64,000 bases of DNA, from assembly GCA_947259415.1 (NCBI GenBank), contig CAMYMI010000007.1:35565-99564 (forward strand), given 5' to 3'. Position numbers and translations under genes: made by a program. This document shows positions 26,411 through 42,986 of the stretch, one piece after another. Source of the DNA: an uncultured Ectothiorhodospiraceae bacterium. Lineage in GTDB: Bacteria > Pseudomonadota > Gammaproteobacteria > UBA9214. Within the stretch, counting starts at the first letter, position 1; every line of letters starts with the position of its first letter. The notes below the pieces were generated by a model. It did no database searches, had not been told where the DNA came from, and worked only from the letters and a program-made list of their open reading frames with translations.

Positions 26411-26439
26411 TTGATAAATCATGCTGTTAAGAAACTTCG

Positions 26440-26753: not shown

Positions 26754-28184
26754 ATGGACACCGCACAACTGACCCGCACCTCGGATTACGAGTGGCGTAT
26801 CGAACCGCAGGGTGCCATGCAGGTACCGGGGATCATATTTGCCAGCGAGGACCTGGTGAGGGCCATGGACGACAAGGTTCGCGAACAGGTCTGCAACGTG
26901 GCCACCCTGCCCGGCATCGTCAAGGCCTCCTACGCCATGCCGGATGCCCACTGGGGCTATGGCTTTCCCATCGGCGGGGTGGCTGCCTTTGATGCCGACC
27001 AGGGCGGAGTCGTTTCCGCCGGGGGTGTCGGTTTCGATATTTCCTGCGGCGTACGCACCCTGCACACCGGCCTGAAACGGCCTGATATCGACGCGGTCAG
27101 GGAACGTCTGGCTGACGCCCTGTTCCATACCATCCCGGCGGGTGTCGGCAGCACCGGGCGCATCCACCTGGACGAGGCCGGCATGGACGCCATGCTGAAC
27201 GGCGGTGCCCGCTGGGCGGTAAAGCGCGGCTGGGGTTACCGCGAAGACCTGGAGCGTGTCGAGGAACACGGCTGCATGGATGGCGCCCGGGCGGAGAACG
27301 TCTCCGAGCGCGCCCGCAAACGCCAGCGTAACGAAATGGGCACCCTGGGTTCCGGCAACCACTACCTCGAGTTGCAGGAGGTCTGCGAGGTCTTTGATCC
27401 CGAGGCGGCCAGCGTCTTCGGTATCAGCCCGGGCGATGTCGTAGTCAGCATCCATTGCGGCTCGCGCGGACTGGGCCATCAGATCGGGACGGAGTTCCTG
27501 AAATCGATGGTGATCAAGGCACAGCAGTACGGCATCACCCTGCCGGACCGCGAACTCGCCTGTGCCCCGATTGACTCGGATACCGGTCAGGCCTATCTCG
27601 GCGCCATGCGCGCGGCCATCAACTGTGCCCTTGCCAACCGCCAGATAATCACCCACCTCACCCGCGAGGTATTCGAGCGGATCATCCCGGCGGCCACGCT
27701 GGAACTGCTCTACGACGTGTCACATAACACCTGCAAGGTGGAGGAGCATGTCATAGACGGCAACCCGCAACGCCTGTATGTCCATCGCAAGGGTGCGACG
27801 CGCGCCTTCGGACCCGGTCACCCCGATATCCCGGAGGACCTGCGCTCCATAGGCCAGCCAGTGCTGATCGGGGGCTCCATGGGGACCGCCTCGCACATCC
27901 TGGCCGGCACCCGACAGGGCGAGGCCCTGTCGTATTCATCGGCCTGTCATGGCGCCGGTCGTGCCATGAGCCGGCGCCGGGCCTACAAGCTCTGGAAGGG
28001 TCGCCAGCTGGTCGACAGCCTGCAGGAGCAAGGCATTCTGATTCGCAGTCCGTCCTCGCGCGGCGTGGCCGAGGAGGCACCGGGAGCCTACAAGGACGTC
28101 GACGCGGTGGTCGATGCCGCCGACGCGGCGGGCCTGGCGCGCAAGGTGGCGAAGCTGAAGCCACTGGCCTGCATCAAGGGCTAG
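26754..28184 (+). CDS. rtcB: RNA-splicing ligase RtcB (3'-phosphate/5'-OH RNA ligase)
   Basis: 476 aa, metal-binding His/Cys (MPDAHWGYGFPIGG, SSACHGAGR), archaeal/eukaryote-like RtcB type. Confidence 0.95.
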   Translation: MDTAQLTRTSDYEWRIEPQGAMQVPGIIFASEDLVRAMDDKVREQVCNVATLPGIVKASYAMPDAHWGYGFPIGGVAAFDADQGGVVSAGGVGFDISCGVRTLHTGLKRPDIDAVRERLADALFHTIPAGVGSTGRIHLDEAGMDAMLNGGARWAVKRGWGYREDLERVEEHGCMDGARAENVSERARKRQRNEMGTLGSGNHYLELQEVCEVFDPEAASVFGISPGDVVVSIHCGSRGLGHQIGTEFLKSMVIKAQQYGITLPDRELACAPIDSDTGQAYLGAMRAAINCALANRQIITHLTREVFERIIPAATLELLYDVSHNTCKVEEHVIDGNPQRLYVHRKGATRAFGPGHPDIPEDLRSIGQPVLIGGSMGTASHILAGTRQGEALSYSSACHGAGRAMSRRRAYKLWKGRQLVDSLQEQGILIRSPSSRGVAEEAPGAYKDVDAVVDAADAAGLARKVAKLKPLACIKG

Positions 28185-28188
28185 GCCG

Positions 28189-28989
28189 ATGCCAGCACAG
28201 CGCGGGCAGCTGTATATCGGGACTTCCGGCTGGTCCTATGACCACTGGAAAGGCCGCTACTACCCCAACGACCTGGCCAGCAGCGGGTGGTTGGGCTATT
28301 ACGCCCGGGAGTTCAACAGCGTCGAGATCAACAGCTCCTTCTATCGTCTGCCCACTGCTTCCACGTTGCAGCACTGGCAGGACGCCACGCCCGCCGACTT
28401 TGTATTTACCGCCAAGGCGAGCCGATACATCACACACATGAAGAAACTGAAAGGGTCGCGGCAAACCCTGCCCCCCTTCCTCGAACGAATCAGTCTTCTC
28501 GGCGACAGGCTGGGCCCCATCCTGTTTCAGCTGCCGCCACACTGGCGCTTCAATGCTGAACGCCTCGCCGCTCTGCTTGATGACCTAGGCGGCGCCTGCC
28601 GTTGCGCCTTCGAATTCCGTGACCACAGCTGGTTCAATGAACAGTGTTATGAACTCCTGTCACGGCACGGCGCCGCGCTGTGTCTCTATGAACTGGAGGG
28701 CTTTCTCAGCCCGCAGGAAATGACTGCCGATTTCGTCTATGTGCGTCTGCATGGGCCTGGGGCGGCCTACCAGGGCAGTTATGGCGACAAGGCACTGGTC
28801 GCTTGGGCGGAGGCCTGCACCCGCTGGACGACCAGTGGGCGCGAGGTTTACATTTATTTTGACAACGACGAATACGCGTATGCGGTACAAAATGCCGCAA
28901 GCCTGCAGGCCATGATTCAGGAGCCCTGCCATGCCGGTTCACAATGCCGAGATCGCCGAACTGTTCAATCGACTCGCCGACCTGCTTGA
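28189..28989 (+). CDS. DUF72 (YecE/UPF0759) family protein
   Basis: YIGTSGWSYDHWKGRYYP N-terminus diagnostic of DUF72; starts 4 nt after rtcB; 3' end overlaps polX by 59 nt. Confidence 0.8.
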   Translation: MPAQRGQLYIGTSGWSYDHWKGRYYPNDLASSGWLGYYAREFNSVEINSSFYRLPTASTLQHWQDATPADFVFTAKASRYITHMKKLKGSRQTLPPFLERISLLGDRLGPILFQLPPHWRFNAERLAALLDDLGGACRCAFEFRDHSWFNEQCYELLSRHGAALCLYELEGFLSPQEMTADFVYVRLHGPGAAYQGSYGDKALVAWAEACTRWTTSGREVYIYFDNDEYAYAVQNAASLQAMIQEPCHAGSQCRDRRTVQSTRRPA

Positions 28990-30652
28990 GCTTGAGGACG
29001 CCAATCCCTTCCGGGTACGCGCCTACCGAACGGCGGCGCGCAATATCAACGGCCTGTCGCACAGCCTGGTTGACCTGCTGGCTGCTGGCGAGGACCTGTC
29101 GAAACTGTCGGGCATCGGCAAGGACCTGGCGGGGAAGATCCGTACCATCATCGAGACCGGCAAGCTGCCACTGCTGGAACAGGTGCAGGCACGCACCCCC
29201 GCCGAGCTCAGCGACCTGATGAAGATCGACGGACTCGGCCCAAAACGGGTGAAGACACTGCACCAGCAGCTGCATATCAGCAGCTTCGAAGACCTGCAGC
29301 GAGCGGCGCGTAGCGGCAAGATCCGCGCACTGGCGGGCTTCGGCGCAAAGACCGAGGCACTCATCCTGGAACGCCTGACACGTTCCCGGCAAGCAGATAT
29401 CCGCTCCCGCCTGGCAGATGCGGAGGATATCGCCGGCCCGCTGGTCAATTATCTGCTGGACTGCACCGGGGTCAAACAGGTCAATATCGCCGGCAGCTAC
29501 CGGCGCCGCCGCGAGACCGTCGGCGACCTGGATATCCTGGTGACAGCGAAACAGGGCACCCCGGTAACCGACCACTTTGTCGCCTATGACGAGGTGAGCG
29601 AGGTGATTTCACACGGCAAGACCCGGTCCACCGTGCACCTGCGTTCCGGCATGCAGGTCGACCTGCGCGTAGTTGCCCAGGTGAGTTATGGTGCCGCCCT
29701 TCTGTATTTCACCGGATCCAAGGCACACAACATCGCCTTGCGCAAGCTGGCCATCAGGCAGGGATACAAGCTCAACGAGTACGGCCTGTTCAGGGGCGAC
29801 AAGCGCGTTGCAGGACGCACGGAGGCGGCCGTGTATGCAAAACTGGGCCTGTCCTATATCGAGCCTGAACTGCGCGAGCAGCAAGGCGAGATAGAGGCAG
29901 CCCGCAAGGGCACTTTGCCTGAACTTGTCAGCCGCGAGGACATCCGTGGTGACCTGCACTGCCATACCCGGGCCACCGATGGCCACGACAGCCTGGAGGC
30001 CATGGTGGCTGCCGCCCGCAAGCTGGGTTATGAATACCTCGCCATCACGGACCATTCAAAACGGGTCAGCGTCGCCCACGGGCTCGATCACAAGCGCCTG
30101 CTGGAGGAGGCCCGGCGAATCAACAAACTCAACGAACAGCTGGATGATATCGTGGTACTCAAGTCCATCGAGGTCGACATCCTCGAGGACGGCAGCCTGG
30201 ACCTGCCCGACAGCGTACTCGGCCAGCTGGACCTGGTGGTCGGTGCGATCCACTACAAGTTTAATCTCACGCGCAAACAGCAGACCGAGCGCATCATCCG
30301 CGCCATGGACAACCCGCACTTCAATATCCTGGCACACCCCAGTGGACGGCTGCTCAACCAGCGCCCGCCCTACGATATCGATATGGAAAAGATCATGCAG
30401 GCCGCTGTGGAGCGCGGCTGCTTCCTGGAACTGAACGCCCAGCCCGCGCGCCTAGACCTCACCGATGGCGACTGCATGCTGGCCCGCGAGTTGCGACTCA
30501 AGGTGGTGATTTCAACCGATGCACACAGTACCGGCACCCTCGACTATATGCGTTTCGGAATAAGCCAGGCACGGCGCGGCTGGCTGGAACCTGACGACGT
30601 GGTCAACACGTGCGGACTGGATGAATTGAGAAAATTACTCAAACGCAACTGA
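28931..30652 (+). CDS. polX: DNA polymerase X family protein with C-terminal PHP phosphoesterase domain
   Basis: Pol-beta-like N-terminus ([17 protein letters not shown], Hh[18 protein letters not shown] catalytic Asp) plus PHP motifs (HCHT, DH, HP). Confidence 0.9.
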
Positions 30653-30725
30653 GGAGCGCTTGCCACGACAACATCTGCGCTGCTCAGCAGCGTCACGGAG
30701 AGCGACACAGGGCAGCATTGGCCAG

Positions 30726-30966
30726 TCAAATACTCTGGCGACAACTGCCTTCGCGAATCCACACACCACGCTCTTCACACCGCAGCATCTCGTCACCGCT
30801 GCAAACATAGTCGCCGATCGCGTAGGCGATATTGTTGAAATGACAGACCCCGGATTCCAGCTCCAGGTCCAGCGACAGCTCATCGGCATCGGTGTCGTCG
30901 AAAATGGGCGAATTCTTCAACTCCGGATCCGGCGCGCCTACCTTCGGTAACTGCCTGACTTCAGTC
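30726..30966 (-). CDS. small hypothetical protein with conserved Cys pattern (C-x15-C...LRC...SC)
   Basis: ORF only; start taken at the internal Met of the ORF 30726..31028; family not recognised. Confidence 0.35.
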
Positions 30967-31214
30967 ATCACCTTTCTCCTCATGGTGTCATTCCCTGTCT
31001 TCTGGATCTGCGCCAGCACACAGGACAACTCTAAATCTTTTTAACTCTTAATGTTAAGTATAGAAGCTGCTGCCGAACCGGACATCGCCCCTGTCAACAA
31101 GCCCCATCTGGTGCGCCCACCATGCTTGTAATGGTCTAGTATTAATGTAGGACTGCCTGAAAGCAGGGACCTGATAATCATCATTTTAATTGCTGATCAT
31201 ATTCGGGAGGCACC

Positions 31215-31649
31215 ATGTCAAGACCCTGGATTGTAGTAGCAGACCAAAGCAAGGCGCGGATATTTTCCATGGAAGACCCGCAAGGGCCACTGCAGGAAAT
31301 GGGCCAGCTGAAACACCCCGAGGCCCGTGAGCATGCCCGGACACTGACGTCCGACCGCCCGGGGCGCAGCTTCGACAGCGGTGGCCAGGGGCGCCATGCC
31401 ATGGGGACATCTGTGGAACCCAAGGAACAGGAGGCCATCCGTTTTGCCAAACAGATTGCCGAACACCTGCGTGCCGAGTGTCACGATAAAGGCTGCAACC
31501 GACTGGTACTGATCGCCGGACCGGACTTTCTGGGCCTGCTCCGGGAGCAGATTGGTTCGATGAATGACATTACCATCACGGAGATCAAGAAAAACCTGGG
31601 GCAGTACAGCCCGCACGAGATTCGTACGCATTTGCCGGCAAGGTTATAA
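31215..31649 (+). CDS. Host_attach (PF10116-like) protein, probable bacterial eRF1-like (baeRF1) fold
   Basis: N-terminus MSRPWIVVADQSKARIFS matches the W[IV]LVAD..ARLF signature of host-attachment family proteins; 144 aa. Confidence 0.5.
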   Translation: MSRPWIVVADQSKARIFSMEDPQGPLQEMGQLKHPEAREHARTLTSDRPGRSFDSGGQGRHAMGTSVEPKEQEAIRFAKQIAEHLRAECHDKGCNRLVLIAGPDFLGLLREQIGSMNDITITEIKKNLGQYSPHEIRTHLPARL

Positions 31650-31726
31650 CGGGACAGTTGCAACCGGAACGATTTTCGGACGTTTTGAAGACGGTTCAGC
31701 ACACCCTGTATCGAGGAGGCAGACAC

Positions 31727-32053
31727 ATGGTCAGCGAAGCCGACCCCATCATCGGAGCGTGGTATCACTACCCGGAAAAGGCGCAGAAATTCGTGGTGGT
31801 TGCCATTGATGAACACACGGATACCATCGAGGTCCAGTACTTCGACGGCAACATCGACGAATTCGATATGAGCGCCTGGTATGAACTCGACATGGAGCGT
31901 ATCGAGGAGCCGGAGGACTGGACCGGGCCAATGGACAACATCGAGAAAGACGACCTCAACCCGGTGGGCACGGAGATGCGGCGCGAGGACTGGGACGCGC
32001 CCTATCAGGAAGAGGATGAGAAAAAGAGCGCCGGACCGCGCGAACCGGATTAA
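31727..32053 (+). CDS. hypothetical acidic protein
   Basis: ORF downstream of the Host_attach gene; highly acidic C-terminus; internal start MVSEADP preferred. Confidence 0.35.
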   Translation: MVSEADPIIGAWYHYPEKAQKFVVVAIDEHTDTIEVQYFDGNIDEFDMSAWYELDMERIEEPEDWTGPMDNIEKDDLNPVGTEMRREDWDAPYQEEDEKKSAGPREPD

Positions 32054-32241
32054 TGGGTAAACTGGAGACAGTCTCCATATCACACGATCACATGGCGGGG
32101 CAGGCAACTGCGTAACCCGTCTATCCCGAATTTGGTTCAGTCCACGCAGATCCGGCCCGCACAGGTGGCAAACGACATGGGCTCGGTTCCAGCGGATGGC
32201 CCCGTGGCTTTGACCGGCTCCCGGGTTCAGGGTAAAAGCGA

Positions 32242-33630
32242 CTAAAGCGGCAACTTCTGCAGGTATTCAGCCTGCGTGACCCGACCACCGAACCCGCGTT
32301 GCAGCTGCGCGGCCAGCACGTCCATCGCATCGGGTTCACCGTGCACCAGGACCACCGGCGGGTGCCCCTCGATCTGGTCATACCAGTCCAGCAAACCCTG
32401 CTGGTCGGCATGGGCAGACAGGCCGCCTACGGTGTGGACCCGAGCCTGCACCTTGATGGTCTCACCCCACAACCTGATATGGCTGGCCCCGTCGACCAGG
32501 GCACGACCCTGTGTCCCGCGCGCCTGGAAGCCGACAATCATGACGTGCGCATCCCGACGCCAGATGTTGTGTTTCAAATGGTGCTTGATGCGCCCGCCGG
32601 TACACATGCCGCTGCCGGCGATGATTATGGCACCGGCATGCAGCGTGTTGATCTGCATGGACTCCTCGGCGCGTTCAGTCATGCGCAGATTGGGCAAGTC
32701 GAACAGGGTGCCGCGCTCGCGGGCAAAGTCACGCGCCCTGACGTCATAGACGCGCGAGTGCCGGTCATAGATCTCGGTTGCCTCGATCCCCATCGGGCTG
32801 TCCAGGAAGATCTGCCAGTCGCCGATCCCCCATTCCTCGTAATGACTGTTGAAGATATACAGCAGCTCCTGGGTGCGGCCAACGGTAAAGGCGGGAACCA
32901 GGATATTACCCTTGCCGGCGTGGGCGCTGGATAGCACCATGCGCATCTCCTCCCAGGTGGATTCCCAGTCGCGGTGCCGGCGGTCGCCGTAGGTGCTTTC
33001 CAGGACCACCAGGTCAGCCTGCGGCACGCGTTCCGGGTCACGCAGGATCGGGGCGCCATGATGCCCGAGGTCGCCGCTGAAAACGACCTTGCGCCTGTGT
33101 CCGCCCTCTTCAAGGTCCAGTACGACGATAGCGGATCCGAGGATATGTCCGGCATCATGCAGCGTCAGGCGCACGCCCGGCAGGATCTGCTGTAGCTGTC
33201 CGAACTCCAGCGCCTTGAAGTGCCGATGCGAGGCGCGTGCCTCCTGGCGGGTGTAGAGGGGTTCCAGGAGTTCCAGACCCTTGCGTGCACGCTTGCGGTT
33301 TTCCCACTCGGCTTCCTTCTCGTTCAGGTAGCCGGCGTCTTCGAGCATGATCGCACACAGGTCGACGGTGGCCGTGTGGGTGTAAACCGGACCCTGGTAA
33401 CCGCGCTTGACCAGCAGCGGCAGCCGTCCGGAATGATCGATATGGGCATGGGTAAGGACCACCGCATCGATCTTTGCCGTATCGAAGCTGAACGCGTCGC
33501 TGTTGTGGCGCTCGTGTTTACGGCTGCCCTGTATCAGCCCGCAGTCAACCAGGACCTGTTGATCAGCGACCCGCAATAGAAAACAGGACCCGGTGACCTC
33601 GCGCGTGGCACCCAGAAACTCGATCTCCAT
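32242..33630 (-). CDS. MBL-fold beta-CASP ribonuclease (RNase J/CPSF73-like)
   Basis: HxHxDH motif THAHIDHSG, beta-CASP region, C-terminal RNA-metabolising MBL domain; 462 aa. Confidence 0.8.
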   Translation of the reverse strand: MEIEFLGATREVTGSCFLLRVADQQVLVDCGLIQGSRKHERHNSDAFSFDTAKIDAVVLTHAHIDHSGRLPLLVKRGYQGPVYTHTATVDLCAIMLEDAGYLNEKEAEWENRKRARKGLELLEPLYTRQEARASHRHFKALEFGQLQQILPGVRLTLHDAGHILGSAIVVLDLEEGGHRRKVVFSGDLGHHGAPILRDPERVPQADLVVLESTYGDRRHRDWESTWEEMRMVLSSAHAGKGNILVPAFTVGRTQELLYIFNSHYEEWGIGDWQIFLDSPMGIEATEIYDRHSRVYDVRARDFARERGTLFDLPNLRMTERAEESMQINTLHAGAIIIAGSGMCTGGRIKHHLKHNIWRRDAHVMIVGFQARGTQGRALVDGASHIRLWGETIKVQARVHTVGGLSAHADQQGLLDWYDQIEGHPPVVLVHGEPDAMDVLAAQLQRGFGGRVTQAEYLQKLPL

Positions 33631-33749
33631 AGTGACTCCTTGTCAGCGGGGGCCGGCGTCGATGTACACACGTCTTAAACACCGGGATCAGCTGCCGGTA
33701 TCCCGAAGCGCCCGCCGGGCGTATTAGGCCATATTTTATTAATTATAGT

Positions 33750-34847
33750 TCAAGTTCTTATATAGAATCTCTCATCCAAAGCCTTAAGTGTTTCCACAAT
33801 CCCTGTGTACTCGAGTTCGTCCATGGGCAGCATGGCCGCACCGAAGAAGCCCTGGCGCCGCATGCCGATGGCCTTGTTCGCGACGGTGTCACGTACCTTG
33901 TCCCAGAAGGGGTGGGCGAACACGTCCACCGCCTCGGTGAAGCGGCCGTCGTGCATGGCAAACGCGGCACAACTCACCACCGGTGGGCCATCGAAATAAC
34001 TGATTCCCGAATTCAGCTGCACCGGCATCAGCGGCATCTGGTGGGAACCGCGCATGGCACCGGCCACGTAGGGCCCGATGGCATAGGGCGCGATGATCTC
34101 GCCGGTCGCCGGAAAGGTCTTCTGCACCCGCACCAGCAGGACCGGATCATCCTTGCCGGTGTACTTGCCGGCAATGTTGTGCAGGCGTGACGTGGACAGC
34201 GAAACCGCCTGTTCGCCGCTGGTCCGTGACCAGACCGATTCGATCACATAGCGCTCCGGATTACGCAGCAGCGCGGCAATGTCGTAGAGATCCTCGGGCG
34301 CATTCAGTTCGATTATACGGTCGCCTTCGGTGTGACTGACATCCATGATCACAAAGCGGAAGCCTTCTTTCATGGACGGCGACAGCATCAGCCCCGGGGT
34401 ATTCATGGGGTCGGCAAAGGCCAGGTACAGAGCCAGGTTGTAACAGCCGGGATCGGTCTTGTCGGCGGCAAAAAACAGGAAGGGTTCATTGGGGCGCTCG
34501 TCGAAGTCCATCTCCGCAACGGCCGGTCCCATACCGCGCACGTTTCCGGAAAAGGCCTCCTTGAGCAGGTCCTGGCCAGCGCCGTAGAGGCCCTGCTCCC
34601 TGGCGGTTTCCGTACCCGCCATGAAGGCATCCCAGGCCAGGGCGTGGATATCCTCATCGGTCACACCACGGGTATGGCTCATGACAATGGCAATGTCGTC
34701 GCCGGTATAGCTGATATAACTGTCGAGCAACAGATCGGCGCTGCGCTCCTGCACCATGTGACGCACGGTTTCCAGGAGGCGGCGTGATGGACAGATATGG
34801 CCGCCGATCGAGCCGATATCCGCTTTAATGACACTGAGTGTGATCTG
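33750..34847 (-). CDS. fbp: bifunctional fructose-1,6-bisphosphate aldolase/phosphatase (class V FBPase)
   Basis: MQITLSVIKADIGSIGGH N-terminus is the hallmark of the archaeal-type FBP aldolase/phosphatase; about 365 aa. Confidence 0.85.
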   Translation of the reverse strand, partial: QITLSVIKADIGSIGGHICPSRRLLETVRHMVQERSADLLLDSYISYTGDDIAIVMSHTRGVTDEDIHALAWDAFMAGTETAREQGLYGAGQDLLKEAFSGNVRGMGPAVAEMDFDERPNEPFLFFAADKTDPGCYNLALYLAFADPMNTPGLMLSPSMKEGFRFVIMDVSHTEGDRIIELNAPEDLYDIAALLRNPERYVIESVWSRTSGEQAVSLSTSRLHNIAGKYTGKDDPVLLVRVQKTFPATGEIIAPYAIGPYVAGAMRGSHQMPLMPVQLNSGISYFDGPPVVSCAAFAMHDGRFTEAVDVFAHPFWDKVRDTVANKAIGMRRQGFFGAAMLPMDELEYTGIVETLKALDERFYIRT

Positions 34848-34970
34848 CATCGGAGTCCCTCCTGCAATAACCGGTATATCAGGCAGCAACAGCTATTTTA
34901 AAGGTAGCAGATTACCAGTGATCCGGGACTGACGTGTGTCAAGGAGAACGCGATCTGCGCTGTGTTTATC

Positions 34971-36224
34971 CTACAGCAGCAGCCACACGACAAGCAGTCC
35001 CGTCGCTGCTGCCAGCACCAGCGGCGCCACGACCTTTCTGCCCAGCGTTATCCCGCCAACTGTAAATGCCAACACGGCCTTGACGCTGCTGTTAACCGCA
35101 CTGGCGATGATGATGCCGGCCGTAGCCAGCTGCAGCAAGCCGGCGTCATGTGTCGTCATGCGTGCCAGGCTGAGGGTAATGGCATCGACATCCGCCACAC
35201 CGGAAGCGGCTGCAAGCAGGAGAATGCCGACCTCACCCAGGGCATCCTTGAGCGCCTCTGCCAGCAACATGATGGCCGCAAGCAGAAAACCAAAACGCAG
35301 CGCCGCCATCAGTTCGAGAGGGTTGCCGATGGGTGCAGGTTCTTCCACAGCTGTATCTCGCCTGTTCCAGCCCTGCCACAAGGCTGCGCCATAAATAATC
35401 AGCGTCATCAGGCCCGCCGGCAGCAGCAGCAGCCGAAACAGTTGCGGACTGATGAAACTGCCGACCAGGAGCATGCGCGGGTACATGGTCCCGCAGGCGA
35501 TCAGGATGCCGGGTGCCAGCGCCTGTATCATATCCGGCTTGCGCCGTGCCAGGCGCGAGAAATGCAGTGTCAGCGCCGTCGACGAGGCCAGCCCGGCAAA
35601 CAGCCCGGTCAGTATGGCCCCCTTGCTGGTACCGGCAATTCGCATGGCGAAATAGCCACTGAAGGAAATCGCGGCGATCAGAACCACCATCCACCATATC
35701 TGGTAGGGATTGAGCGCCTCCCAGGGACCGTAGCCCCGGTCAGGCAAGACCGGAAGCAACACGATCGAGATCAGCAGCAGCTTCAGCCCGGCGCGCAACT
35801 CCTCACGCTGCAAGCGGCGCAGCCAGCCGTGCAGCACCGGTTTGAAGCCGAGCAGCAGGGTAGTAACAACCGCGGCGGCACCGGCTTCCGCCACATAACC
35901 CAGGCCGGCCAGCGCGCCCAGGGCAAAGGTCAGCAGGCCCGCAATCAGACTGGTAATGCCGACAGCGTGGGTGCGGCGCACATTGGCGAGGTAGGCCGCC
36001 GTCATCACCCCCGCCATGCCCAGGAACACAATTCCAAGCAGCAGTTCACCCAGCTGCTGCGATAGCAGCCCGATGACCCCGCCCAGCAGACCGATCAGCC
36101 CGAAGGTGCGCAGCCCGGAAATGCGCGTCCCTTCCTCGGCCTCACGCTGTTGCCATCCGCGCTCGATGCCGATCAGGAAACCGACAGCCAGCGCCACACC
36201 CAGTAATACGATCGAGTTGTACAT
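34971..36224 (-). CDS. MgtC/SapB family membrane protein fused to DUF4010
   Basis: MgtC-like N-terminal TM region followed by additional TM repeats typical of DUF4010. Confidence 0.7.
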   Translation of the reverse strand: MYNSIVLLGVALAVGFLIGIERGWQQREAEEGTRISGLRTFGLIGLLGGVIGLLSQQLGELLLGIVFLGMAGVMTAAYLANVRRTHAVGITSLIAGLLTFALGALAGLGYVAEAGAAAVVTTLLLGFKPVLHGWLRRLQREELRAGLKLLLISIVLLPVLPDRGYGPWEALNPYQIWWMVVLIAAISFSGYFAMRIAGTSKGAILTGLFAGLASSTALTLHFSRLARRKPDMIQALAPGILIACGTMYPRMLLVGSFISPQLFRLLLLPAGLMTLIIYGAALWQGWNRRDTAVEEPAPIGNPLELMAALRFGFLLAAIMLLAEALKDALGEVGILLLAAASGVADVDAITLSLARMTTHDAGLLQLATAGIIIASAVNSSVKAVLAFTVGGITLGRKVVAPLVLAAATGLLVVWLLL

Positions 36225-36434
36225 GCCTGTAACTTACACCTCTTGCTGCCGTTATGCCCCTGGGCAAACCCGCAAGCGTCCACAACCACTGCTTGCACCT
36301 GACCGGTTATCACTGATAATTGACGCAAATCAGTCCGGCGACGGATTATGTGGTCCATAATTAATATATAAATCGTAAACCGGTAATTGTCATTAAACGG
36401 ACGTATCCCGGCCACCAGCAGACGAGGCAAACTC

Positions 36435-38870
36435 ATGGAACCAGGCAAGCCGCTGACCCCTGACATGCTCTACCAGGAATGTGACCCGGAACTGTTTGAC
36501 TTTAAAACCACTGACGAACTTGAGGACCTGGTCGATATCCCGGGCCAGGACCGTGCCGTCGAGGCCATCCATTTCGGCACCGAGATGGCGCCCGACGGCT
36601 ATAACCTGTACGTGCTCGGCACCCCGGGCAGCGGCCGGCACAGTCTCGTCAGACACATCCTCGAGCAAAAGAGCGCACAAATACCGGCCGCCGATGACTG
36701 GTGTTACGTGAACAATTTTTCCGACCCGACGAAGCCTTGCGCGCTGCATATGCCTGCAGGCCAGGGTACCGAGCTGCGCAGTGACGTCGCACAGCTGATC
36801 GGCGAGGCCTACACGGGCATACCCGCAGCCTTTGAAAGCGAGGATTACCAGACCCGCCAGCAGGCCATCGAGGAGGAATTCAAGGAATCCCAGGAAAAGA
36901 CCTTCGAGGATGTACAACAGTTCGCCAGGAAACGCGGCATCAAGATCATCCAGACCGCGACCGGCTTCGTATTCGCACCACTGCACAAGGACAAGGCCAT
37001 CAGCCCGCAGGAATACGAAAAGCTGCCACAGACGGAAAAGGAGCACCTGGAACAGGTCACCGAGGAAGTCGGCAAGGAACTACAGCGCGCCATGCAGGCA
37101 ATACCACAGGAGGCGCGCAAGGTGCGCGCCAAGATGCGGGAACTTGACCGCGAGGTCTCGATGTATGCCGTCGGCGGGCTGTTTGACCAGTTGCTGGACA
37201 AGTACCGCACTCAGGAGCAGGTCGTCACCTATCTCAGGGAGATGCAATCCGATATCGTCGACAACGTCGATGTCTTTTTAAAGGCTCCGGAACATGACAG
37301 GCTCCCGGCCAAGGTTCTGCTCGGCGGTCGTGCCCAGGGACTGGAGTCCACTGAATCACCGGCCATGCGCCGCTATGCCGTCAACGTCATAATCGACCAT
37401 GGCGGTGACGAGGGTGCCCCGCTTGTCTTCGAGGATTACCCGACCTTTCCCAACCTGGTCGGCAAGATCGAGCACGTTTCCGAAATGGGCACCCTGATCA
37501 CCAACTTCACCCTGATCAGGGCCGGAGCCCTGCACAGCGCCAATGGCGGATACCTGGTGCTGGATGCCGCAAAGCTGCTGGTACAGCCGTTCGCCTGGGA
37601 GGGCCTGAAGCGCGCCCTGAAATCGTCCCGGATCCGCATCCGTTCGCTCGGCGAGGTTCTCAGCCTGATCAGCACGGTGTCGCTCGAACCGGAACCGATA
37701 CCGCTCAACCTCAAGGTCATTCTGCTGGGCGACCGCCTGATTTACTACCTGCTGCAGGCCTATGACCCCGAGTTCATGGATCTTTTCAAGGTGGCGGCGG
37801 ACTTTGATGACGCAATTGACCGTACCGCGGAGAACAGCCGACAGTTCGCCCGGCTGCTGGCCACCCATATCAAGCGCGAGCAACTCAGGCCACTGGATTG
37901 CTCCGGCACCGCCCGGGTGCTGGAGGAATGCGCACGCCATGCCGGTGATGCGGAAAAGATCTCCGCACAGATCCGCCACGCGGCCGACATCGTTCGCGAG
38001 GCGGATTTCCATGCCCGTAACAACGACAGCAAGATTATCGGCAGCGAAGAGGTCCAGCGTGCGATTGATGCCCGTATCCGCCGCGACAGCCGTATTCGCG
38101 ACCGCCTGCAGGAGGAGATTCTGCGCGGCACCATCCTGATCGACACCGACGGCGAACGCGTAGGCCAGGTCAACGGTCTGGCTGTGGCCCAGCTCGGCGA
38201 GTCCTCCTTTGCCCATCCCTGCCGTATCACCGCGCGCGTCGCCCTGGGATCGGGCGAAGTCGTGGATATCGAACGCGAGGTGGAACTCGGCGGGCCAATC
38301 CATTCCAAGGGCGTATTGATTTTATCGGGGTTCCTGGCATCCCGCTATGTGATAGATCAACCCCTGTCACTGTTCGCGAGCCTGGTGTTCGAGCAAACCT
38401 ACGGCGGGATCGAGGGTGACAGTGCCTCTGCGGCCGAACTCTGTGCCCTGCTCTCGGCACTCGCGCAGATTCCGGTACGGCAGGGCCTGGCGATTACCGG
38501 CTCGGTCAACCAGCATGGCCAGGTCCAGGCCATCGGCGGTGTCAACGAGAAAATCGAGGGGTTCTTCGACATCTGCTCAAGACGCGAGCTGACAGGAACG
38601 CAGGGTGTGCTGATCCCGTCTTCCAACGTCAAGCACCTGATGTTACGCAGGGACGTGATCGAGGCGGTTGCGGCCAAGCATTTCCAGATCTACCCGGTTG
38701 AGACCATCGACCAGTGCATGGAACTCCTGACCGGGATTGAAGCGGGCGAGTGCAATGCCCGGGGTGATTTTCCCACTGATTCGGCCAACCAGCGGATACG
38801 CACCCGGCTGATCGAATTTGCCGAAAAGCGGCATGCCTTCGGCGCGACCGGTTCCAAATCAGAGACCTAG
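36435..38870 (+). CDS. LonC-like Lon-related protease with degenerate AAA+ module
   Basis: Walker A reads GTPGSGRHS (no Lys); C-terminal Lon S16 protease domain with Ser (GDSAS) and Lys (NEKIEGF) dyad; start at MEPGKPLTPD. Confidence 0.8.
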   Translation: MEPGKPLTPDMLYQECDPELFDFKTTDELEDLVDIPGQDRAVEAIHFGTEMAPDGYNLYVLGTPGSGRHSLVRHILEQKSAQIPAADDWCYVNNFSDPTKPCALHMPAGQGTELRSDVAQLIGEAYTGIPAAFESEDYQTRQQAIEEEFKESQEKTFEDVQQFARKRGIKIIQTATGFVFAPLHKDKAISPQEYEKLPQTEKEHLEQVTEEVGKELQRAMQAIPQEARKVRAKMRELDREVSMYAVGGLFDQLLDKYRTQEQVVTYLREMQSDIVDNVDVFLKAPEHDRLPAKVLLGGRAQGLESTESPAMRRYAVNVIIDHGGDEGAPLVFEDYPTFPNLVGKIEHVSEMGTLITNFTLIRAGALHSANGGYLVLDAAKLLVQPFAWEGLKRALKSSRIRIRSLGEVLSLISTVSLEPEPIPLNLKVILLGDRLIYYLLQAYDPEFMDLFKVAADFDDAIDRTAENSRQFARLLATHIKREQLRPLDCSGTARVLEECARHAGDAEKISAQIRHAADIVREADFHARNNDSKIIGSEEVQRAIDARIRRDSRIRDRLQEEILRGTILIDTDGERVGQVNGLAVAQLGESSFAHPCRITARVALGSGEVVDIEREVELGGPIHSKGVLILSGFLASRYVIDQPLSLFASLVFEQTYGGIEGDSASAAELCALLSALAQIPVRQGLAITGSVNQHGQVQAIGGVNEKIEGFFDICSRRELTGTQGVLIPSSNVKHLMLRRDVIEAVAAKHFQIYPVETIDQCMELLTGIEAGECNARGDFPTDSANQRIRTRLIEFAEKRHAFGATGSKSET

Positions 38871-39667
38871 TGATGACGCAGCGCGCCAAACACCCACCTG
38901 CACGGATTGCGGTCATGCTGGTCAACCTCGAGTCTGATCACGCCACCCTGGAAATGCTGAACCTGCTCGCCGGTGAATCACCGGCCGAGATCCACGGCCT
39001 GTTCGTGGAGGATATCGAACTGCTGTCACTGGCTGACCTGCCGCTGGCACGTGAATATTGTCGCCTGACTCATGTGGAACGCGTTGTGCAGGTCCCGGAA
39101 CTCGAACGCCAGTTCAGAATCCAGGCCCGTGCCGCTGAACAGGCACTGACCGCACTCGCCAGCCGTCGCGGCATGCAGTGTTCTTTCAGGACAGTACGCG
39201 GCGAGCCTGCCACCCTGCTGCGGGAAACGCTGGAGGCAATGGATTTGATGTTACTCAGCGCCACTCGCCATACCCTGTCGACAGCCGACTATCGTGCATT
39301 TGCGACCCGTGGCCGTCCCGTCAAAAGGCCGGTGACCGTGGTGTTCGATGGCTCTGAAGTCGCCCAACGCGCCCTCGGGGTTGCCACGCAACTGGCCCGT
39401 GCCGGAGCGGCTGCCTTGACGGTATTGCTGGTGGACGATACATCGGCTGCATTTGATGCACTGCGTTCACAGGCGACTGAACAAATCGGCACACAGCCGG
39501 CCGAGTTCAGGGAAGTCGTAAAACCGGAGATGAGCGAACTCATCAGGCAGGTGCAATCAAGCCGTGCCGGCTGCCTGGTAATCGGGCGGAACGAGGACCT
39601 GCTCACACCGAACAATATCGAACGCCTGCGCCACCAGCCCGGCTGCCCGGTCGTGCTGGTCAGCTAG
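38870..39667 (+). CDS. tandem universal stress protein (UspA) domain protein
   Basis: Two Usp-like alpha/beta modules; ATGA overlap with the lonC-like stop. Confidence 0.65.
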   Translation: MMTQRAKHPPARIAVMLVNLESDHATLEMLNLLAGESPAEIHGLFVEDIELLSLADLPLAREYCRLTHVERVVQVPELERQFRIQARAAEQALTALASRRGMQCSFRTVRGEPATLLRETLEAMDLMLLSATRHTLSTADYRAFATRGRPVKRPVTVVFDGSEVAQRALGVATQLARAGAAALTVLLVDDTSAAFDALRSQATEQIGTQPAEFREVVKPEMSELIRQVQSSRAGCLVIGRNEDLLTPNNIERLRHQPGCPVVLVS

Positions 39668-39733
39668 GGTAACGATGCGTCCACGGATATACCAAACCAG
39701 GCGCCCGGACCCGGCCCGGACGCCTGGCAGCTC

Positions 39734-40204
39734 TCACAGCGTATGGCCGTAGTGGCCGCGCTGCGCCTCCTTTAGCAGTTGCTGGAACGACCCGCCATCG
39801 ATACGAACCAGCTCCTCGTGATCGCCGGCCTCGAAAAACACCTCGGGCTCATCCAGCAGGCATTCGTCAAGATAGGTCTCCATCCCCCACGCGGGCCCCG
39901 CGGGTGGAATGGCGCCCACGGCACAGTCAGGAAACAGTTGCACCAATTCTTCCTCCGTCGCCAGGTCCACGCCGTGCCCGAACTGTGCACGCAAGGCAGC
40001 CATGTCGACATGTTCCACCGATGGCAAGACGACCATCAGGTAGCGACCCTCCTCCTTCAGAATGACCGCCTTGGCCAGACGCTGCCCCGGGACATGAGCC
40101 TGTTCCGCCGTCTCCATGCTGCTGCCGGTGTGGGGATGGGGAATCAGGTCGTATTGCGTATCATGCCGGTTGAGAAACTCCTCGAGTGTGACTGAAATCG
40201 TCAT
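39734..40204 (-). CDS. YbaK/ProX-type aminoacyl-tRNA deacylase domain protein
   Basis: About 156 aa from internal start MTISVTLEEFL; YbaK fold motifs (AKAVILK...GAIPP). Confidence 0.7.
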   Translation of the reverse strand: MTISVTLEEFLNRHDTQYDLIPHPHTGSSMETAEQAHVPGQRLAKAVILKEEGRYLMVVLPSVEHVDMAALRAQFGHGVDLATEEELVQLFPDCAVGAIPPAGPAWGMETYLDECLLDEPEVFFEAGDHEELVRIDGGSFQQLLKEAQRGHYGHTL

Positions 40205-40359
40205 GATATGACCTCCTTTTTCAACATATACCGCTAAACTTCTATATGGTAAATATAGACGCTTATTAATTCGTATATACTGATTTATATCAATCCGGCC
40301 AGATCCCTGATGAAAATAAATTTCAACAGGGCTGCAAACTGGAGACTGGTACAGGCTCG

Positions 40360-41379
40360 ATGAACGGCTATCTTGAAAACGGTCTTTCCAGGATACGCAA
40401 GATGTTGCGCCGATACCGGCCCCGTAGTCGGGTCGCTGGTCAACCAACGGCCGCTGCCCTGGATACCATCGAGCATGTTATTCAGAGTACCGATGAACGC
40501 ATACGCCTGGTCAATGGCTACAAGCACAGGCTGTTGGACGCCGTAACCACCACACTAGAGTACACCGGCTCAATCATCGACCAGTTCCCCACGGCCATCG
40601 AGGTCAGCAGCAATACCTTTGTTTCCAACCCCTATGTCAATGCCTTCTTCGCCAATATCGAGGAGCTGCAGTCGGTCTTCAGCCGCAGTCCCGAATTGAG
40701 GGATTTTATCGACGATTACCGGCATCACGACGTCAAGGATATCTGCGCGCTGTTGTGCATGCGTAAGGCCGAAAAGACAGCACTGGGGATGGAGTATGCC
40801 GGCAATACCATGAAAAGGGATGTGCGCCAGGTTGCCATCAATTTCTACGACCATCATGTCTATTCACCCGCGCCGACGGAGGCCGAAACACGCCAGGGAC
40901 TGAAAGACTGTCTGCTTGAAGGGTTAACCACGATGGCCCTCGAGCGTGTGGTGCAATTGCGCCTGTCACGACAAACGCTGGAAGACGAGCAACGCATCCT
41001 GCAGGCGAGATTGAGGTCCCAGCAGGCAGACAGCTGGGACAATCTTGACATGGAGAAGTCCCGGGAGAAACTCGGCCAGATTGAGGAGGCCATGAAGGAC
41101 ACACCACCCGCCTCCCCCATGGAAACCCTGAACGTGGTGGAAGAGGTCCTCAGTCACCCGGAGGAATTCGTCAGGCTGGAGATGATGTCACTGCGGGTTG
41201 ACAGGATGGGGATCAAGCGCAGCGAGGACTCCCCCGGGTCAAGCAACAAGCTGGATCTTATCGAGGTGACCATCGGCAAGGATGATCCCAGGGTTATTAC
41301 GCTGGCCAGGTTTCCCAGGAACGAGGTCCTGCCCCGTATCGATATCCATGAATGGACCCGCCAGCGCATGCGGGTCTAG
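40360..41379 (+). CDS. hypothetical protein (339 aa), charged with coiled-coil region, no recognisable domain
   Basis: ORF with AT-rich divergent promoter region shared with the ybaK-like gene. Confidence 0.5.
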   Translation: MNGYLENGLSRIRKMLRRYRPRSRVAGQPTAAALDTIEHVIQSTDERIRLVNGYKHRLLDAVTTTLEYTGSIIDQFPTAIEVSSNTFVSNPYVNAFFANIEELQSVFSRSPELRDFIDDYRHHDVKDICALLCMRKAEKTALGMEYAGNTMKRDVRQVAINFYDHHVYSPAPTEAETRQGLKDCLLEGLTTMALERVVQLRLSRQTLEDEQRILQARLRSQQADSWDNLDMEKSREKLGQIEEAMKDTPPASPMETLNVVEEVLSHPEEFVRLEMMSLRVDRMGIKRSEDSPGSSNKLDLIEVTIGKDDPRVITLARFPRNEVLPRIDIHEWTRQRMRV

Positions 41380-41449
41380 TCCAAGGTTGACTGGCCACCA
41401 CCCCAAGGAAGTCTGAGGCGGAGCAGAACGGCCCTGATTGCAGCCCCCT

Positions 41450-42337
41450 TCAGTCCTCCGGATATGCGACGGCATCCTGAAAGAACGGCAGGTACTCGGT
41501 CCAGTCGTTGACCGGACCGGCATGGAAAAACAGCACAATGCCGTTACGGTCGAGCACGTAGCTTGACGGGAAAATCCTGGCCAGCTCCCGGTCCGGCATC
41601 TTTTCGCCGGCAGCGGTCACCAGGAAGGCATCATCCTCCCCGCTGGCGCCGGAATCTGCCAGGGGCAACCCGGCGAATCCCTGTCGCTGCGCCCACTCAC
41701 GTGCATTGCTGATCGGTTCGCGCAGCTGCAACAGGACCAGGGCGACATCATCACCGGTCTTGTCCAGCAGGATACGGTGCAGGGTGTCCAGGGTGGGCAA
41801 TTCTCGCAGGCATGGTGGGCACCAGCTGCCCCAGAAATGCACCATCACGACCTTGCCGCGCAGGTCGGCAATTGACCGGGACCGTCCGTCCGCACTGGTG
41901 AAGGCGATGTTCGGGAATCGATCACCGACTTGCGTGCCCGTCGCGGCTGTCGCGGCCTGTTCAGCTGTCTTATAGGGCCCCCAGAGCTTGCCCCATGCCT
42001 CGCGCGCGAACTCCAGCGTGTCATCCACGGCATAAGGAATACAGCGCAGGGCCGTGTGCTTCTGGCATTCCTCCACAGCGACCTGGCGGGCCTCCTCGGC
42101 AGTGGCCCTCCCGGATGACCAGGCCCAGGCCCCGCCCGGTGCGATCGCGAATGCGCGGTGCCTGTCGGCCGACAGAAAGACCTGCTGATAGGTCGCACGC
42201 GCGCGTTCACCGACATGCGGGATGGCGTCCGCGTCATCAATTCCGGCAGCGCTGACGGTGTTACCCGGAATGAAAAACAGGCACGGCAGCAGGATAAAAA
42301 AGAGAGCCCGGATTAACGGACTCTCAGGTTTCGCCAT
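41450..42337 (-). CDS. TlpA/ResA-family thiol:disulfide oxidoreductase
   Basis: Thioredoxin-fold WCPPC motif, N-terminal signal/anchor; start at MAKPESP. Confidence 0.8.
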   Translation of the reverse strand: MAKPESPLIRALFFILLPCLFFIPGNTVSAAGIDDADAIPHVGERARATYQQVFLSADRHRAFAIAPGGAWAWSSGRATAEEARQVAVEECQKHTALRCIPYAVDDTLEFAREAWGKLWGPYKTAEQAATAATGTQVGDRFPNIAFTSADGRSRSIADLRGKVVMVHFWGSWCPPCLRELPTLDTLHRILLDKTGDDVALVLLQLREPISNAREWAQRQGFAGLPLADSGASGEDDAFLVTAAGEKMPDRELARIFPSSYVLDRNGIVLFFHAGPVNDWTEYLPFFQDAVAYPED

Positions 42338-42982: not shown

Positions 42983-42986
42983 TGTC

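What the first reader, a model, noticed from the sequence alone, without database searches (positions are those of the whole stretch)
33750..34847. Archaeal-type bifunctional FBP aldolase/phosphatase in a gammaproteobacterial chromosome
The MQITLSVIKADIGSIGGH N-terminus is diagnostic of the class V FBP aldolase/phosphatase, characteristic of archaea and deep-branching autotrophic bacteria. Its presence suggests unidirectional gluconeogenesis typical of chemolithoautotrophs, and possibly lateral acquisition, since it sits inside the accessory segment.
Basis: partly seen in the sequence, partly recalled or inferred. Interest (0 to 1): 0.55.

Follow-up and report, generated by a model that had tools for sequence, protein, structure and literature searches.

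The report
Ordinary bacterial FBP aldolase/phosphatase gene

Summary
A 366-aa ORF on the minus strand (33750-34850, ATG at 34850, AGGAGG 7 nt upstream) is a full-length class V FBP aldolase/phosphatase. It scores 533 bits on Pfam PF01950 and 554 bits on the NCBIfam equivalog NF041126 (cut-off 520), and matches the archaeal crystal structures at E about 1e-97. The Schiff-base lysine (K233), Y230, D234/D235 and Y348 are present, as are all 87 columns that are invariant in 83 homologues.

The host is an uncultured gammaproteobacterium whose nearest species representative is an Ectothiorhodospiraceae MAG.

The enzyme is not restricted to archaea and deep-branching autotrophs: at least 550 species-representative bacterial genomes encode relatives, the best 80 at 72-95% identity. 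These include Gammaproteobacteria, Nitrospira, Chlorobiaceae, Burkholderiales, Acidobacteria and Myxococcales; two cyanobacterial proteins at 80-82% came from the separate protein search.

The gene does lie in a lineage-specific variable zone between rnr/tRNA-Leu and purA, which are adjacent in a more distant relative. However, that zone has no integrase, no att repeat and no compositional deviation. The FBPA/P block is collinear in three sister MAGs, and the protein groups with other gammaproteobacterial sequences, far from the one archaeal sequence used.

Verdict: already known and ordinary, low interest. One side observation is that stress and repair genes recur next to this gene in several phyla.

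The parts
33750..34850 (-). FBP aldolase/phosphatase CDS (366 aa plus stop), class V FBPase
   Evidence: ORF listing. Pfam PF01950 533 bits. NCBIfam NF041126 equivalog 554 bits against a cut-off of 520. PDB 3r1m, 1umg and 3t2b at E about 1e-97 over residues 1-362.
34858..34863 (-). Shine-Dalgarno AGGAGG, 7-nt spacer to the ATG at 34850
   Evidence: Read directly from the sequence. GAG at its core is invariant and the rest largely kept in L001, L081 and L082.
34897..34916 (-). Conserved 20-nt upstream block GGTAATCTGCTACCTTTAAA; putative promoter or operator, function inferred only
   Evidence: Nearly invariant in the four close relatives, including L082 where the upstream gene differs. Unique in the window. 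Among the 87 loci it occurs only in L001, L081 and L082.
34146..34163 (-). Codons for Y230-T-G-K233-D234-D235: Schiff-base lysine motif, matching Y229/K232/D233/D234 of chain 3r1m_A
   Evidence: Alignment to 3r1m. These columns are invariant in 83 homologues. Codon coordinates checked. Lys232 is reported as essential for the aldolase activity (PMC5080403 citing Say & Fuchs 2010). A Y229F variant structure, 3t2g, exists.
33807..33809 (-). Codon for Y348 in the E-L-E-Y-T motif: the tyrosine needed for phosphatase activity
   Evidence: Aligns to Y348 of 3r1m_A. Tyr348 is reported as essential for the phosphatase activity (PMC5080403).
34797..34820 (-).
   Evidence: G13, S14, G17 and H18 are strictly invariant, including in the archaeal sequence. 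D11 is invariant among the 20 bacterial sequences aligned.
34971..36224 (-). Upstream same-strand neighbour, an MgtC/DUF4010 membrane protein (context, not part of the enzyme)
   Evidence: Pfam. Present in L001 and L081 but absent in L082.
32242..33630 (-). Downstream same-strand neighbour, a beta-CASP metallo-beta-lactamase-fold RNase (context)
   Evidence: Pfam. Adjacent to FBPA/P, 123-128 bp away, in L001, L081 and L082.
19640..50634 (.).
   Evidence: purA and rnr are adjacent in L085. The content beyond rnr differs in L083. The left junction is the same in L086. No mobility genes, no att repeat, and composition like the core.

Best explanation

Shown here: an intact 366-aa ORF with a strong ribosome-binding site, full-length membership of the family, and conservation of every family-invariant residue.

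Inferred from the archaeal enzymes:
- Lys233 forms a Schiff base with DHAP and, with Tyr230, condenses it with glyceraldehyde-3-phosphate to give FBP.
- The active site then remodels, and the Asp/His/Gln-bound Mg2+ cluster, with Tyr348, hydrolyses the 1-phosphate to give fructose-6-phosphate.
- The coupled reaction makes carbon flow from triose phosphate to hexose phosphate effectively one-way. This would serve gluconeogenesis and possibly the regeneration branch of a Calvin cycle if the organism has one.

The gene appears to be a stand-alone transcription unit with its own conserved upstream block. It sits in a chromosomal variable zone between rnr/tRNA-Leu and purA, but it is compositionally native and is shared, with its neighbours, by sister species.
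For: - Family: Pfam PF01950 533 bits. NCBIfam equivalog NF041126 554 bits against 520.
- Solved structures: 3r1m, 1umg and 3t2b at E about 1e-97 over residues 1-362.
- Residues: K233, Y230, D234, D235 and Y348 align to K232, Y229, D233, D234 and Y348. All 87 strictly invariant columns of 83 homologues are kept, with no deviation at 150 near-invariant columns. The published roles of Lys232 and Tyr348 come from PMC5080403.
- Fold: the only significant PDB fold matches are the seven FBPA/P entries, TM about 0.70.
- Expression signals: AGGAGG plus ATG and a conserved upstream block.
- Native status: GC3 0.747 against core 0.743 +/- 0.037; codon-usage distance 0.244 against 0.231 +/- 0.053; the 32-36 kb block has the highest tetranucleotide correlation with the window, 0.957.
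- Synteny: collinear in L001, L081 and L082, with remnants of the neighbourhood in L003 and L042.
- Rate of divergence: FBPA/P and DnaB identities fall off in parallel among relatives.
- Phylogeny: the NJ tree places the protein with sister MAGs inside a cluster dominated by Gammaproteobacteria, on a long branch away from S. tokodaii.
Against: - No biochemistry exists for any member of this mesophilic bacterial clade that I could find; activity, unidirectionality and oligomeric state are extrapolated from archaeal and thermophile enzymes.
- The AlphaFold model was poor (mean pLDDT 57).
- The metabolic role cannot be fixed, because the rest of the genome (other FBPases or aldolases, RuBisCO, PRK) is not in the window.
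- No convincing sigma-70 promoter or terminator was found around the gene.
- The gene does lie in a zone that is absent from a more distant relative, so an old acquisition or relocation cannot be excluded.
- The tree is a simple NJ tree with a single archaeal outgroup.
Confidence: 0.9

Rival explanations
1. The FBPA/P block entered the rnr-purA variable zone by an old bacterium-to-bacterium transfer, or by an intragenomic relocation, at the base of this genus- or family-level clade. It has since taken on the host's composition.
For: purA abuts rnr in L085, a relative with 86% DnaB identity. The content next to rnr differs in L083, at 94% DnaB identity. A tRNA-Leu lies at the left border. The FBPA/P tree mixes phyla, with Nitrospira and Chlorobiaceae interleaved among Gammaproteobacteria, which suggests transfers between bacteria within the family.
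Against: No integrase, transposase, att repeat or flanking repeats. Composition cannot be told apart from the core. Distant Gammaproteobacteria keep the same neighbours near FBPA/P: ybaK and DUF6763 in L003, LonC-Usp and DUF6763 in L042. This pattern favours vertical descent with rearrangement.
Confidence: 0.3
2. Recent lateral acquisition from an archaeon.
For: The family was first described in archaea. One protein in the same 90%-identity cluster (P0121) is labelled 'Halobacteria archaeon' in NCBI.
Against: That label is a binning error. Its contig carries the window's own gene order, DUF4010-FBPA/P-beta-CASP-DUF6763, and the same MAG also holds a 99% bacterial DnaB. Identity to the crenarchaeal enzyme is only about 46%, against 72-95% to hundreds of bacteria. 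The branch to the archaeal sequence is long. Composition is native.
Confidence: 0.02
3. The protein works mainly in the Calvin-Benson cycle, as an FBP (and possibly SBP) aldolase/phosphatase replacing missing class I/II FBPase or SBPase, rather than in general gluconeogenesis.
For: Many close relatives are in lineages I know as CBB or rTCA autotrophs: Thiocapsa, Chromatiales, Thiohalobacter, Acidiferrobacteraceae, Nitrospira and Chlorobiaceae. FBPase and SBPase are patchy in rubisco-encoding marine lineages, and bifunctional enzymes have been invoked to fill the gap (PMC12168267).
Against: No CBB or glycolytic gene is a recurrent neighbour in the 82 loci. The enzyme is equally common in lineages I know as heterotrophs: Bryobacterales, Myxococcales and Burkholderiales. 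No RuBisCO or PRK lies in the window. This reading is compatible with the best explanation rather than exclusive of it.
Confidence: 0.25
4. A degenerate or monofunctional paralogue: phosphatase only, or inactive.
For: None specific. The enzyme was originally annotated as a plain FBPase, and some database names still say so.
Against: The Schiff-base Lys, Tyr230 and every invariant residue are retained. The ORF is full length with a strong SD. The protein is 95% conserved against neighbours at 72-92% in L001, which points to strong purifying selection.
Confidence: 0.04

Closest known systems
Sulfurisphaera (Sulfolobus) tokodaii ST0318 FBP aldolase/phosphatase (PDB 3r1m, 1umg)
   Same: Alignable along the full length (query 1-362 to chain 2-362, E 8e-98). 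Same Y-x-G-K-D-D and E-x-E-Y-T motifs and the same invariant Asp, His and Gln positions. The predicted fold matches at TM 0.70.
   Different: Only about 46% identity. The source is a hyperthermophilic archaeon, whereas the window's host is an uncultured gammaproteobacterium. There are small indels around residues 173-178.
Thermoproteus neutrophilus FBP aldolase/phosphatase (PDB 3t2b-3t2g)
   Same: E 2.7e-97 over query residues 1-355. Structures exist for the ligand-free, DHAP-, FBP- and F6P-bound states and for a Y229F variant, so the mechanism can be mapped onto Y230 and K233 here.
   Different: 42-43% identity in the structural alignment. The archaeal chain is about 40 residues longer (407 aa).
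Bacterial FBPA/P clade annotated by NCBIfam NF041126 or JGI (for example Thiohalobacter thiocyanaticus, Thiocapsa, Nitrospira and Kaarinaea lacus proteins)
   Same: 72-95% identity, the same length (365-368 aa), and the same invariant residues. The window protein itself (P0001) is already in NCBI.
   Different: Nothing of substance. Only the local gene neighbourhood differs between lineages.
Moorella thermoacetica Moth_2266, the bacterial enzyme reported as unidirectional
   Same: Same family. It is cited as experimentally unidirectional in a bacterium (PMC5080403).
   Different: It comes from a thermophilic acetogen. It was not compared by sequence here.

Membership tests
FBP aldolase/phosphatase (class V FBPase; Pfam PF01950 / NCBIfam NF041126) | Full-length match to the curated family profiles above their cut-offs | tested here: met
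   PF01950 533 bits (cut-off 25), profile positions 1-360 of 361. NF041126 equivalog 554 bits (cut-off 520), positions 1-356 of 356.
FBP aldolase/phosphatase (class V FBPase; Pfam PF01950 / NCBIfam NF041126) | Schiff-base lysine (Lys232), essential for aldolase activity, in the Y-x-G-K-D-D motif | tested here: met
   K233 aligns to K232 of 3r1m_A. Y230, D234 and D235 are also conserved. The criterion comes from PMC5080403 citing Say & Fuchs 2010.
FBP aldolase/phosphatase (class V FBPase; Pfam PF01950 / NCBIfam NF041126) | C-terminal tyrosine (Tyr348), essential for phosphatase activity | tested here: met
   Y348 in DELEYTG aligns to Y348 of 3r1m_A, and the column is invariant.
FBP aldolase/phosphatase (class V FBPase; Pfam PF01950 / NCBIfam NF041126) | All family-invariant residues retained, including the acidic, His and Gln positions of the N-terminal half | tested here: met
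   87 of 87 strictly invariant columns and 150 of 150 near-invariant columns are identical to 82 bacterial sequences plus S. tokodaii. That these residues bind metal is my recollection of the structure papers and was not verified here.
FBP aldolase/phosphatase (class V FBPase; Pfam PF01950 / NCBIfam NF041126) | [quoted passage not shown] | tested here: met
   Sequence homology to the solved chains over residues 1-362 at E about 1e-97. Foldseek's only significant hits are the seven FBPA/P entries, TM about 0.70, with the next hit at E > 1e-3 and TM < 0.2. Caveat: the model has mean pLDDT 57 and pTM 0.60. The fold description is from PMC5698383.
FBP aldolase/phosphatase (class V FBPase; Pfam PF01950 / NCBIfam NF041126) | Measured bifunctional, unidirectional, Mg2+-dependent activity | not testable with these tools
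   Needs enzyme assays. No biochemical paper on this bacterial clade was found in the held library.
FBP aldolase/phosphatase (class V FBPase; Pfam PF01950 / NCBIfam NF041126) | Occurrence in thermophiles, archaea or deep-branching bacteria (the textbook distribution) | tested here: not met
   The host is a gammaproteobacterium. This is not a true defining feature: at least 550 bacterial species representatives carry the gene, so the textbook description is out of date.
Genomic island / recently acquired mobile segment | Integrase, transposase or other mobility genes | tested here: not met
   No such Pfam family in any ORF scanned between 19.6 and 50.6 kb.
Genomic island / recently acquired mobile segment | Insertion at a tRNA gene with a duplicated att repeat | tested here: not met
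   A tRNA-Leu(CAG) lies at the left border. Its 3' 24 nt has no second copy with up to 3 mismatches, and there are no long flanking repeats.
Genomic island / recently acquired mobile segment | Base composition or codon usage that deviates from the core genome | tested here: not met
   The FBPA/P gene lies within 1 SD of the core for GC3 and codon usage. Tetranucleotide correlations for the segment are 0.87-0.96, the same range as the flanks.
Genomic island / recently acquired mobile segment | Absent from the syntenic site in related genomes | tested here: met
   purA and rnr are adjacent in L085 and the content differs in L083. However, the FBPA/P sub-block is conserved in L001, L081 and L082.
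Other FBPase classes (I Fbp, II GlpX, III, IV IMPase-type) | Match to the corresponding Pfam or NCBIfam models | tested here: not met
   PF01950 and NF041126 are the only families hit at E <= 1e-3.

The most novel reading that the evidence does not exclude
In mesophilic bacteria the FBPA/P gene may belong to a stress or heat-shock-linked gene neighbourhood. It could act as a robust, one-step route from triose phosphate to hexose phosphate during stress, dormancy or recovery, rather than as the housekeeping gluconeogenic enzyme.

The hint is that unrelated phyla repeatedly place it beside the following genes within the +/-10 kb loci:
- Hsp20 in 15 of 82 loci
- GroEL, divergently oriented 41-94 bp away, in 5 Acidobacteria loci, plus one more at 4.4 kb
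- RtcA or RtcB in 9 loci plus the window
- PolX, HPF and Lon-like protease with Usp in smaller numbers

The window itself has HPF, RtcB, PolX, baeRF12, beta-CASP, LonC and Usp within 10 kb. No matched control was run, and many of the loci are related to one another, so this could still be chance or shared ancestry.
Probability: 0.12. Interest if true: 0.5.

Novelty: already known. Interest (0 to 1): 0.14.

Why it matters
For this window it matters little. The gene is a correctly recognisable, database-annotated member of a well-studied enzyme family, and it says only that the organism can drive triose phosphates irreversibly to fructose-6-phosphate.

Two modest points are useful.

First, the common statement that class V FBPase / FBPA/P is an enzyme of archaea, thermophiles or deep-branching bacteria is out of date. 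Relatives are encoded by at least 550 bacterial species representatives; the best 80 are 72-95% identical and include many lineages I know as mesophilic. The gene should therefore not be read as a marker of archaeal transfer or of autotrophy.

Second, an NCBI 'Halobacteria archaeon' MAG carries mis-binned contigs from this gammaproteobacterium, and this could mislead taxonomy-based inferences of horizontal transfer.

Tried and rejected
- Exact-sequence look-ups of the window's FBPA/P and PurA found nothing on record, so the source contig and the rest of the genome could not be fetched.
- Literature phrase searches failed because of the slash in the enzyme's name. Searches on 'ancestral gluconeogenic enzyme', 'class V FBPase', PF01950 and K01622 gave only indirect statements. 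The two 2011 Nature structure papers are not held.
It was used only as weak support.
- No sigma-70 promoter or intrinsic terminator was found next to the gene. By eye, the conserved upstream block fits neither the sigma-54 nor the sigma-32 consensus.
- A search for a conserved metabolic partner gene across 82 loci found none: no CBB or glycolysis neighbours.
- The hypothesis of an archaeal origin based on the 'Halobacteria archaeon' label was rejected as mis-binning.
- The idea that the upstream block is a regulon motif was rejected, because it is unique in the window and limited to the three closest loci.
Full report
**Observation.** The window carries a minus-strand ORF at 33750-34889 when read from an upstream TTG. 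That ATG is preceded by AGGAGG at 34863-34858, with a 7-nt spacer. Homologues are mostly 365-368 aa and their consensus starts MKITLSV.

**Family assignment.**
- Pfam finds a single family, PF01950 (FBPase_3), at 533 bits covering profile positions 1-360 of 361.
- Against the PDB, the only hits are the Sulfolobus tokodaii (3r1m, 1umg) and Thermoproteus neutrophilus (3t2b-g) enzymes, at E about 1e-97 over residues 1-362.
- The literature available here names Lys232 as essential for the aldolase activity and Tyr348 for the phosphatase activity (PMC5080403 citing Say & Fuchs 2010). In the alignment these correspond to K233, in the motif Y230-T-G-K233-D234-D235, and to Y348, in E-L-E-Y-T.
- In an alignment of the window protein with 82 bacterial homologues and the S. 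tokodaii sequence, 87 columns are strictly invariant among the others and the window protein matches all 87. It also matches all 150 near-invariant columns.
- An AlphaFold model built from the only alignment I was allowed to use was poor: 20 sequences, all at least 79% identical, giving mean pLDDT 57 and pTM 0.60. Even so, Foldseek returned only the seven FBPA/P crystal entries as significant (E about 1e-26, TM about 0.70). The next hit had E > 1e-3 and TM < 0.2.
- Membership of the class V FBPase / FBPA/P family is therefore established as far as sequence can establish it. Catalysis itself is inferred.

**Host.** The flanks hold core bacterial genes.
- Left flank: trmD, ffh, ccsA, corC, radA, alr, dnaB, rlmB and rnr.
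- Right flank: purA, hisZ, hflC, hflK, hflX, miaA, mutL and amiB.
- The window's DnaB is 100% identical to a protein on the same 107.5-kb NCBI contig that carries the 100% FBPA/P. Nearly all named relatives are Gammaproteobacteria or Pseudomonadota MAGs.
- The closest species representative carrying FBPA/P is an uncultured Ectothiorhodospiraceae MAG at 95% (L001).

So 'gammaproteobacterial chromosome' is right.

**Distribution.**
The best 80 are 72-95% identical.
- Those 80 come from Ectothiorhodospiraceae, Chromatiales, Thiocapsa, Thiohalobacter, Woeseiaceae, Acidiferrobacteraceae, Methylococcaceae, many Nitrospira, Chlorobiaceae, Burkholderiales, Bryobacterales and Acidobacteria, Geobacteraceae, Myxococcales and an actinobacterium.
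- The protein search also named two cyanobacterial proteins: Kaarinaea lacus (Nostocales) at 81-82% and a Xenococcaceae MAG at 80%.
- An exhaustive HMMER scan of 50%-identity representatives found 1129 representatives at E <= 1e-3 and 192 at E <= 1e-30.
[quoted passage not shown] The databases show that description is too narrow.
- PGAP and JGI already name these bacterial proteins correctly.

**Was it laterally acquired?** I tested this five ways.

1. Composition. The gene's GC3 is 0.747 against a core mean of 0.743 +/- 0.037. Its codon-usage distance to the core is 0.244 against 0.231 +/- 0.053. The 32-36 kb block has the highest tetranucleotide correlation with the whole window, 0.957.
2. 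Mobility signatures. No integrase, transposase or phage family is present anywhere between 19.6 and 50.6 kb. The 3' end of the bordering tRNA-Leu has no second copy. There are no long flanking repeats.
3. Synteny.
   - L001 is collinear with the window from the multihaem cytochrome gene to rtcB. Its neighbours are 72-92% identical and its FBPA/P is the best conserved at 95%.
   - L082 (94%) has the same order but lacks the MgtC gene.
   - L081 has DUF4010-FBPA/P-beta-CASP-DUF6763-baeRF12.
   - More distant Gammaproteobacteria keep pieces of the neighbourhood: ybaK and DUF6763 in L003, LonC-Usp and DUF6763 in L042.
4. Phylogeny. An NJ tree puts all bacterial sequences in one compact clade on a long branch from S. 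tokodaii, to which the window protein is 46% identical. The window protein groups with L081, L001 and L082 inside a Gammaproteobacteria-rich but phylum-mixed cluster.
5. Rate of divergence. DnaB and FBPA/P identities fall off in parallel among relatives, from 100% to about 95%, about 86% and about 80%.

None of this points to recent or archaeal acquisition.

The one apparent archaeal link is a cluster member labelled 'Halobacteria archaeon' (NNG12929.1). This is a binning artefact. Its contig has the window's gene order, and the same MAG label is attached to a 99% identical bacterial DnaB.

**The 'accessory segment'.**
- In L085 (DnaB 86%) the order is hflC-DUF2065-hisZ-purA-[100 aa]-rnr-rlmB, so purA and rnr are neighbours, as I recall them being in E. 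coli.
- In L083 (94%) the genes beyond rnr are a rhodanese, small ORFs and a TSP_3 protein, which differ from the window's.
- In L086 (98%) the junction matches the window: rnr, a 153-aa ORF, then ABC and MacB.
- L087's contig ends right after rnr.

So 19.6-50.6 kb is a lineage-specific variable zone between rnr/tRNA-Leu and purA. Its content is chromosomal housekeeping and stress genes: HPF, RtcB, DUF72, PolX-PHP, baeRF12, DUF6763, beta-CASP RNase, FBPA/P, MgtC/DUF4010, LonC-like protease, Usp, YbaK, redoxin, cytochrome b561, a multihaem cytochrome, DUF302, CBS and a Na/sulfate-type symporter. An old inter-bacterial transfer, or a relocation of the FBPA/P block into this zone, cannot be excluded, and I give it about 0.3. 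Location alone is not evidence that this gene is foreign.

**Likely function.** By homology, the enzyme should work as follows.
- It condenses DHAP and GAP through a Lys233 Schiff base to give FBP.
- After loop remodelling, the Mg2+ site hydrolyses FBP to F6P.
- The coupled reaction makes the triose-to-hexose step irreversible.

This mechanism comes from the archaeal enzymes. The PDB entries listed cover the ligand-free, DHAP-, FBP- and F6P-bound states and a Y229F variant.

Whether the enzyme serves gluconeogenesis, the Calvin cycle or both cannot be decided. No RuBisCO, PRK or other FBPase or aldolase lies in the window, and across 82 loci there is no recurrent metabolic neighbour. Bifunctional enzymes have been proposed to fill FBPase and SBPase gaps in rubisco-encoding lineages (PMC12168267). 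Because the gene is also common in lineages I know mostly as heterotrophs, it is not a marker of chemolithoautotrophy.

**Side observations.**
- Within the +/-10 kb loci, FBPA/P lies near Hsp20 in 15 loci. It lies 41-94 bp from a divergently oriented GroEL in five Acidobacteria loci, with a sixth GroEL 4.4 kb away.
- RtcA lies near it in 6 loci and RtcB in 3 plus the window. PolX, HPF and LonC lie near it in several more.
- This was not tested against matched controls and many of the loci are related. It is nevertheless the most novel reading the data leave open.
- A 20-nt block at 34897-34916 upstream of the gene is almost invariant in the four closest relatives.

**Verdict.** The feature is an already-known, routinely annotated enzyme of low interest.

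Noticed in passing
L081 (NCBI GCA_013003855.1, contig JABDIH010000267.1); P0121 and P0124: A MAG labelled 'Halobacteria archaeon' contains contigs from this gammaproteobacterium. One carries DUF4010-FBPA/P-beta-CASP-DUF6763-baeRF12 in the window's order. Another carries a 99% identical bacterial DnaB. The nr entry NNG12929.1 therefore carries a wrong taxon and could suggest a false archaeal link.
   Followed up: yes
L001-L082, +/-10 kb around FBPA/P; window 25395-39667: Stress and repair genes recur beside FBPA/P in unrelated phyla. Hsp20 occurs in 15 of 82 loci. GroEL is divergently oriented 41-94 bp away in 5 Acidobacteria loci, with one more at 4.4 kb. RtcA occurs in 6 loci, RtcB in 3 plus the window, PolX in 4-7, and HPF and LonC in 3 each plus the window. 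No matched control was run.
   Followed up: partly
window 19640-50634; L083, L085, L086: The stretch between rnr/tRNA-Leu(CAG) and purA is a lineage-specific variable zone. purA and rnr are adjacent in a relative with 86% DnaB identity, the content differs at 94%, and the junction is the same at 98%. There are no mobility genes or att repeat.
   Followed up: yes
window 34897-34916 (-): The 20-nt block GGTAATCTGCTACCTTTAAA lies 47-66 nt upstream of the FBPA/P start. It is nearly invariant in L001, L081 and L082, even where the upstream gene differs, and is unique in the window. By eye it fits neither the sigma-70, sigma-54 nor sigma-32 consensus. It may be an operator or an unusual promoter.
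   Followed up: partly
P0280, P0289, P0300, P0305, P0308, P0319, P0331, P0368, P0387: Very long proteins (850-2730 aa) carry an internal FBPA/P-like domain at 29-40% identity to the window protein. These look like fusion architectures of unknown origin and function.
   Followed up: no
window 41450-44909 (-): A cluster of a redoxin/AhpC-like protein, cytochrome b561 and a 640-aa multihaem cytochrome (Cytochrome_cB plus an MtrC/MtrF-like domain). It is conserved in L001 and L082 and may be a periplasmic electron-transfer module.
   Followed up: no
window 25395-33630: A run of genes with an RNA/DNA-repair and ribosome-rescue flavour: HPF (S30AE), RtcB, DUF72, PolX with a PHP domain, baeRF family 12 (Host_attach), DUF6763 and a beta-CASP RNase. 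The DUF72 and PolX ORFs overlap by 59 nt as called, so the PolX start may lie further downstream.
   Followed up: no
window 36387-39667 (+): A LonC-type Lon-like protease (LonC_helical, AAA_32, LonB lid and Lon_C domains) is immediately followed by a Usp-domain protein whose start overlaps its stop. The pair is conserved in L001, L082 and, more distantly, L042.
   Followed up: no
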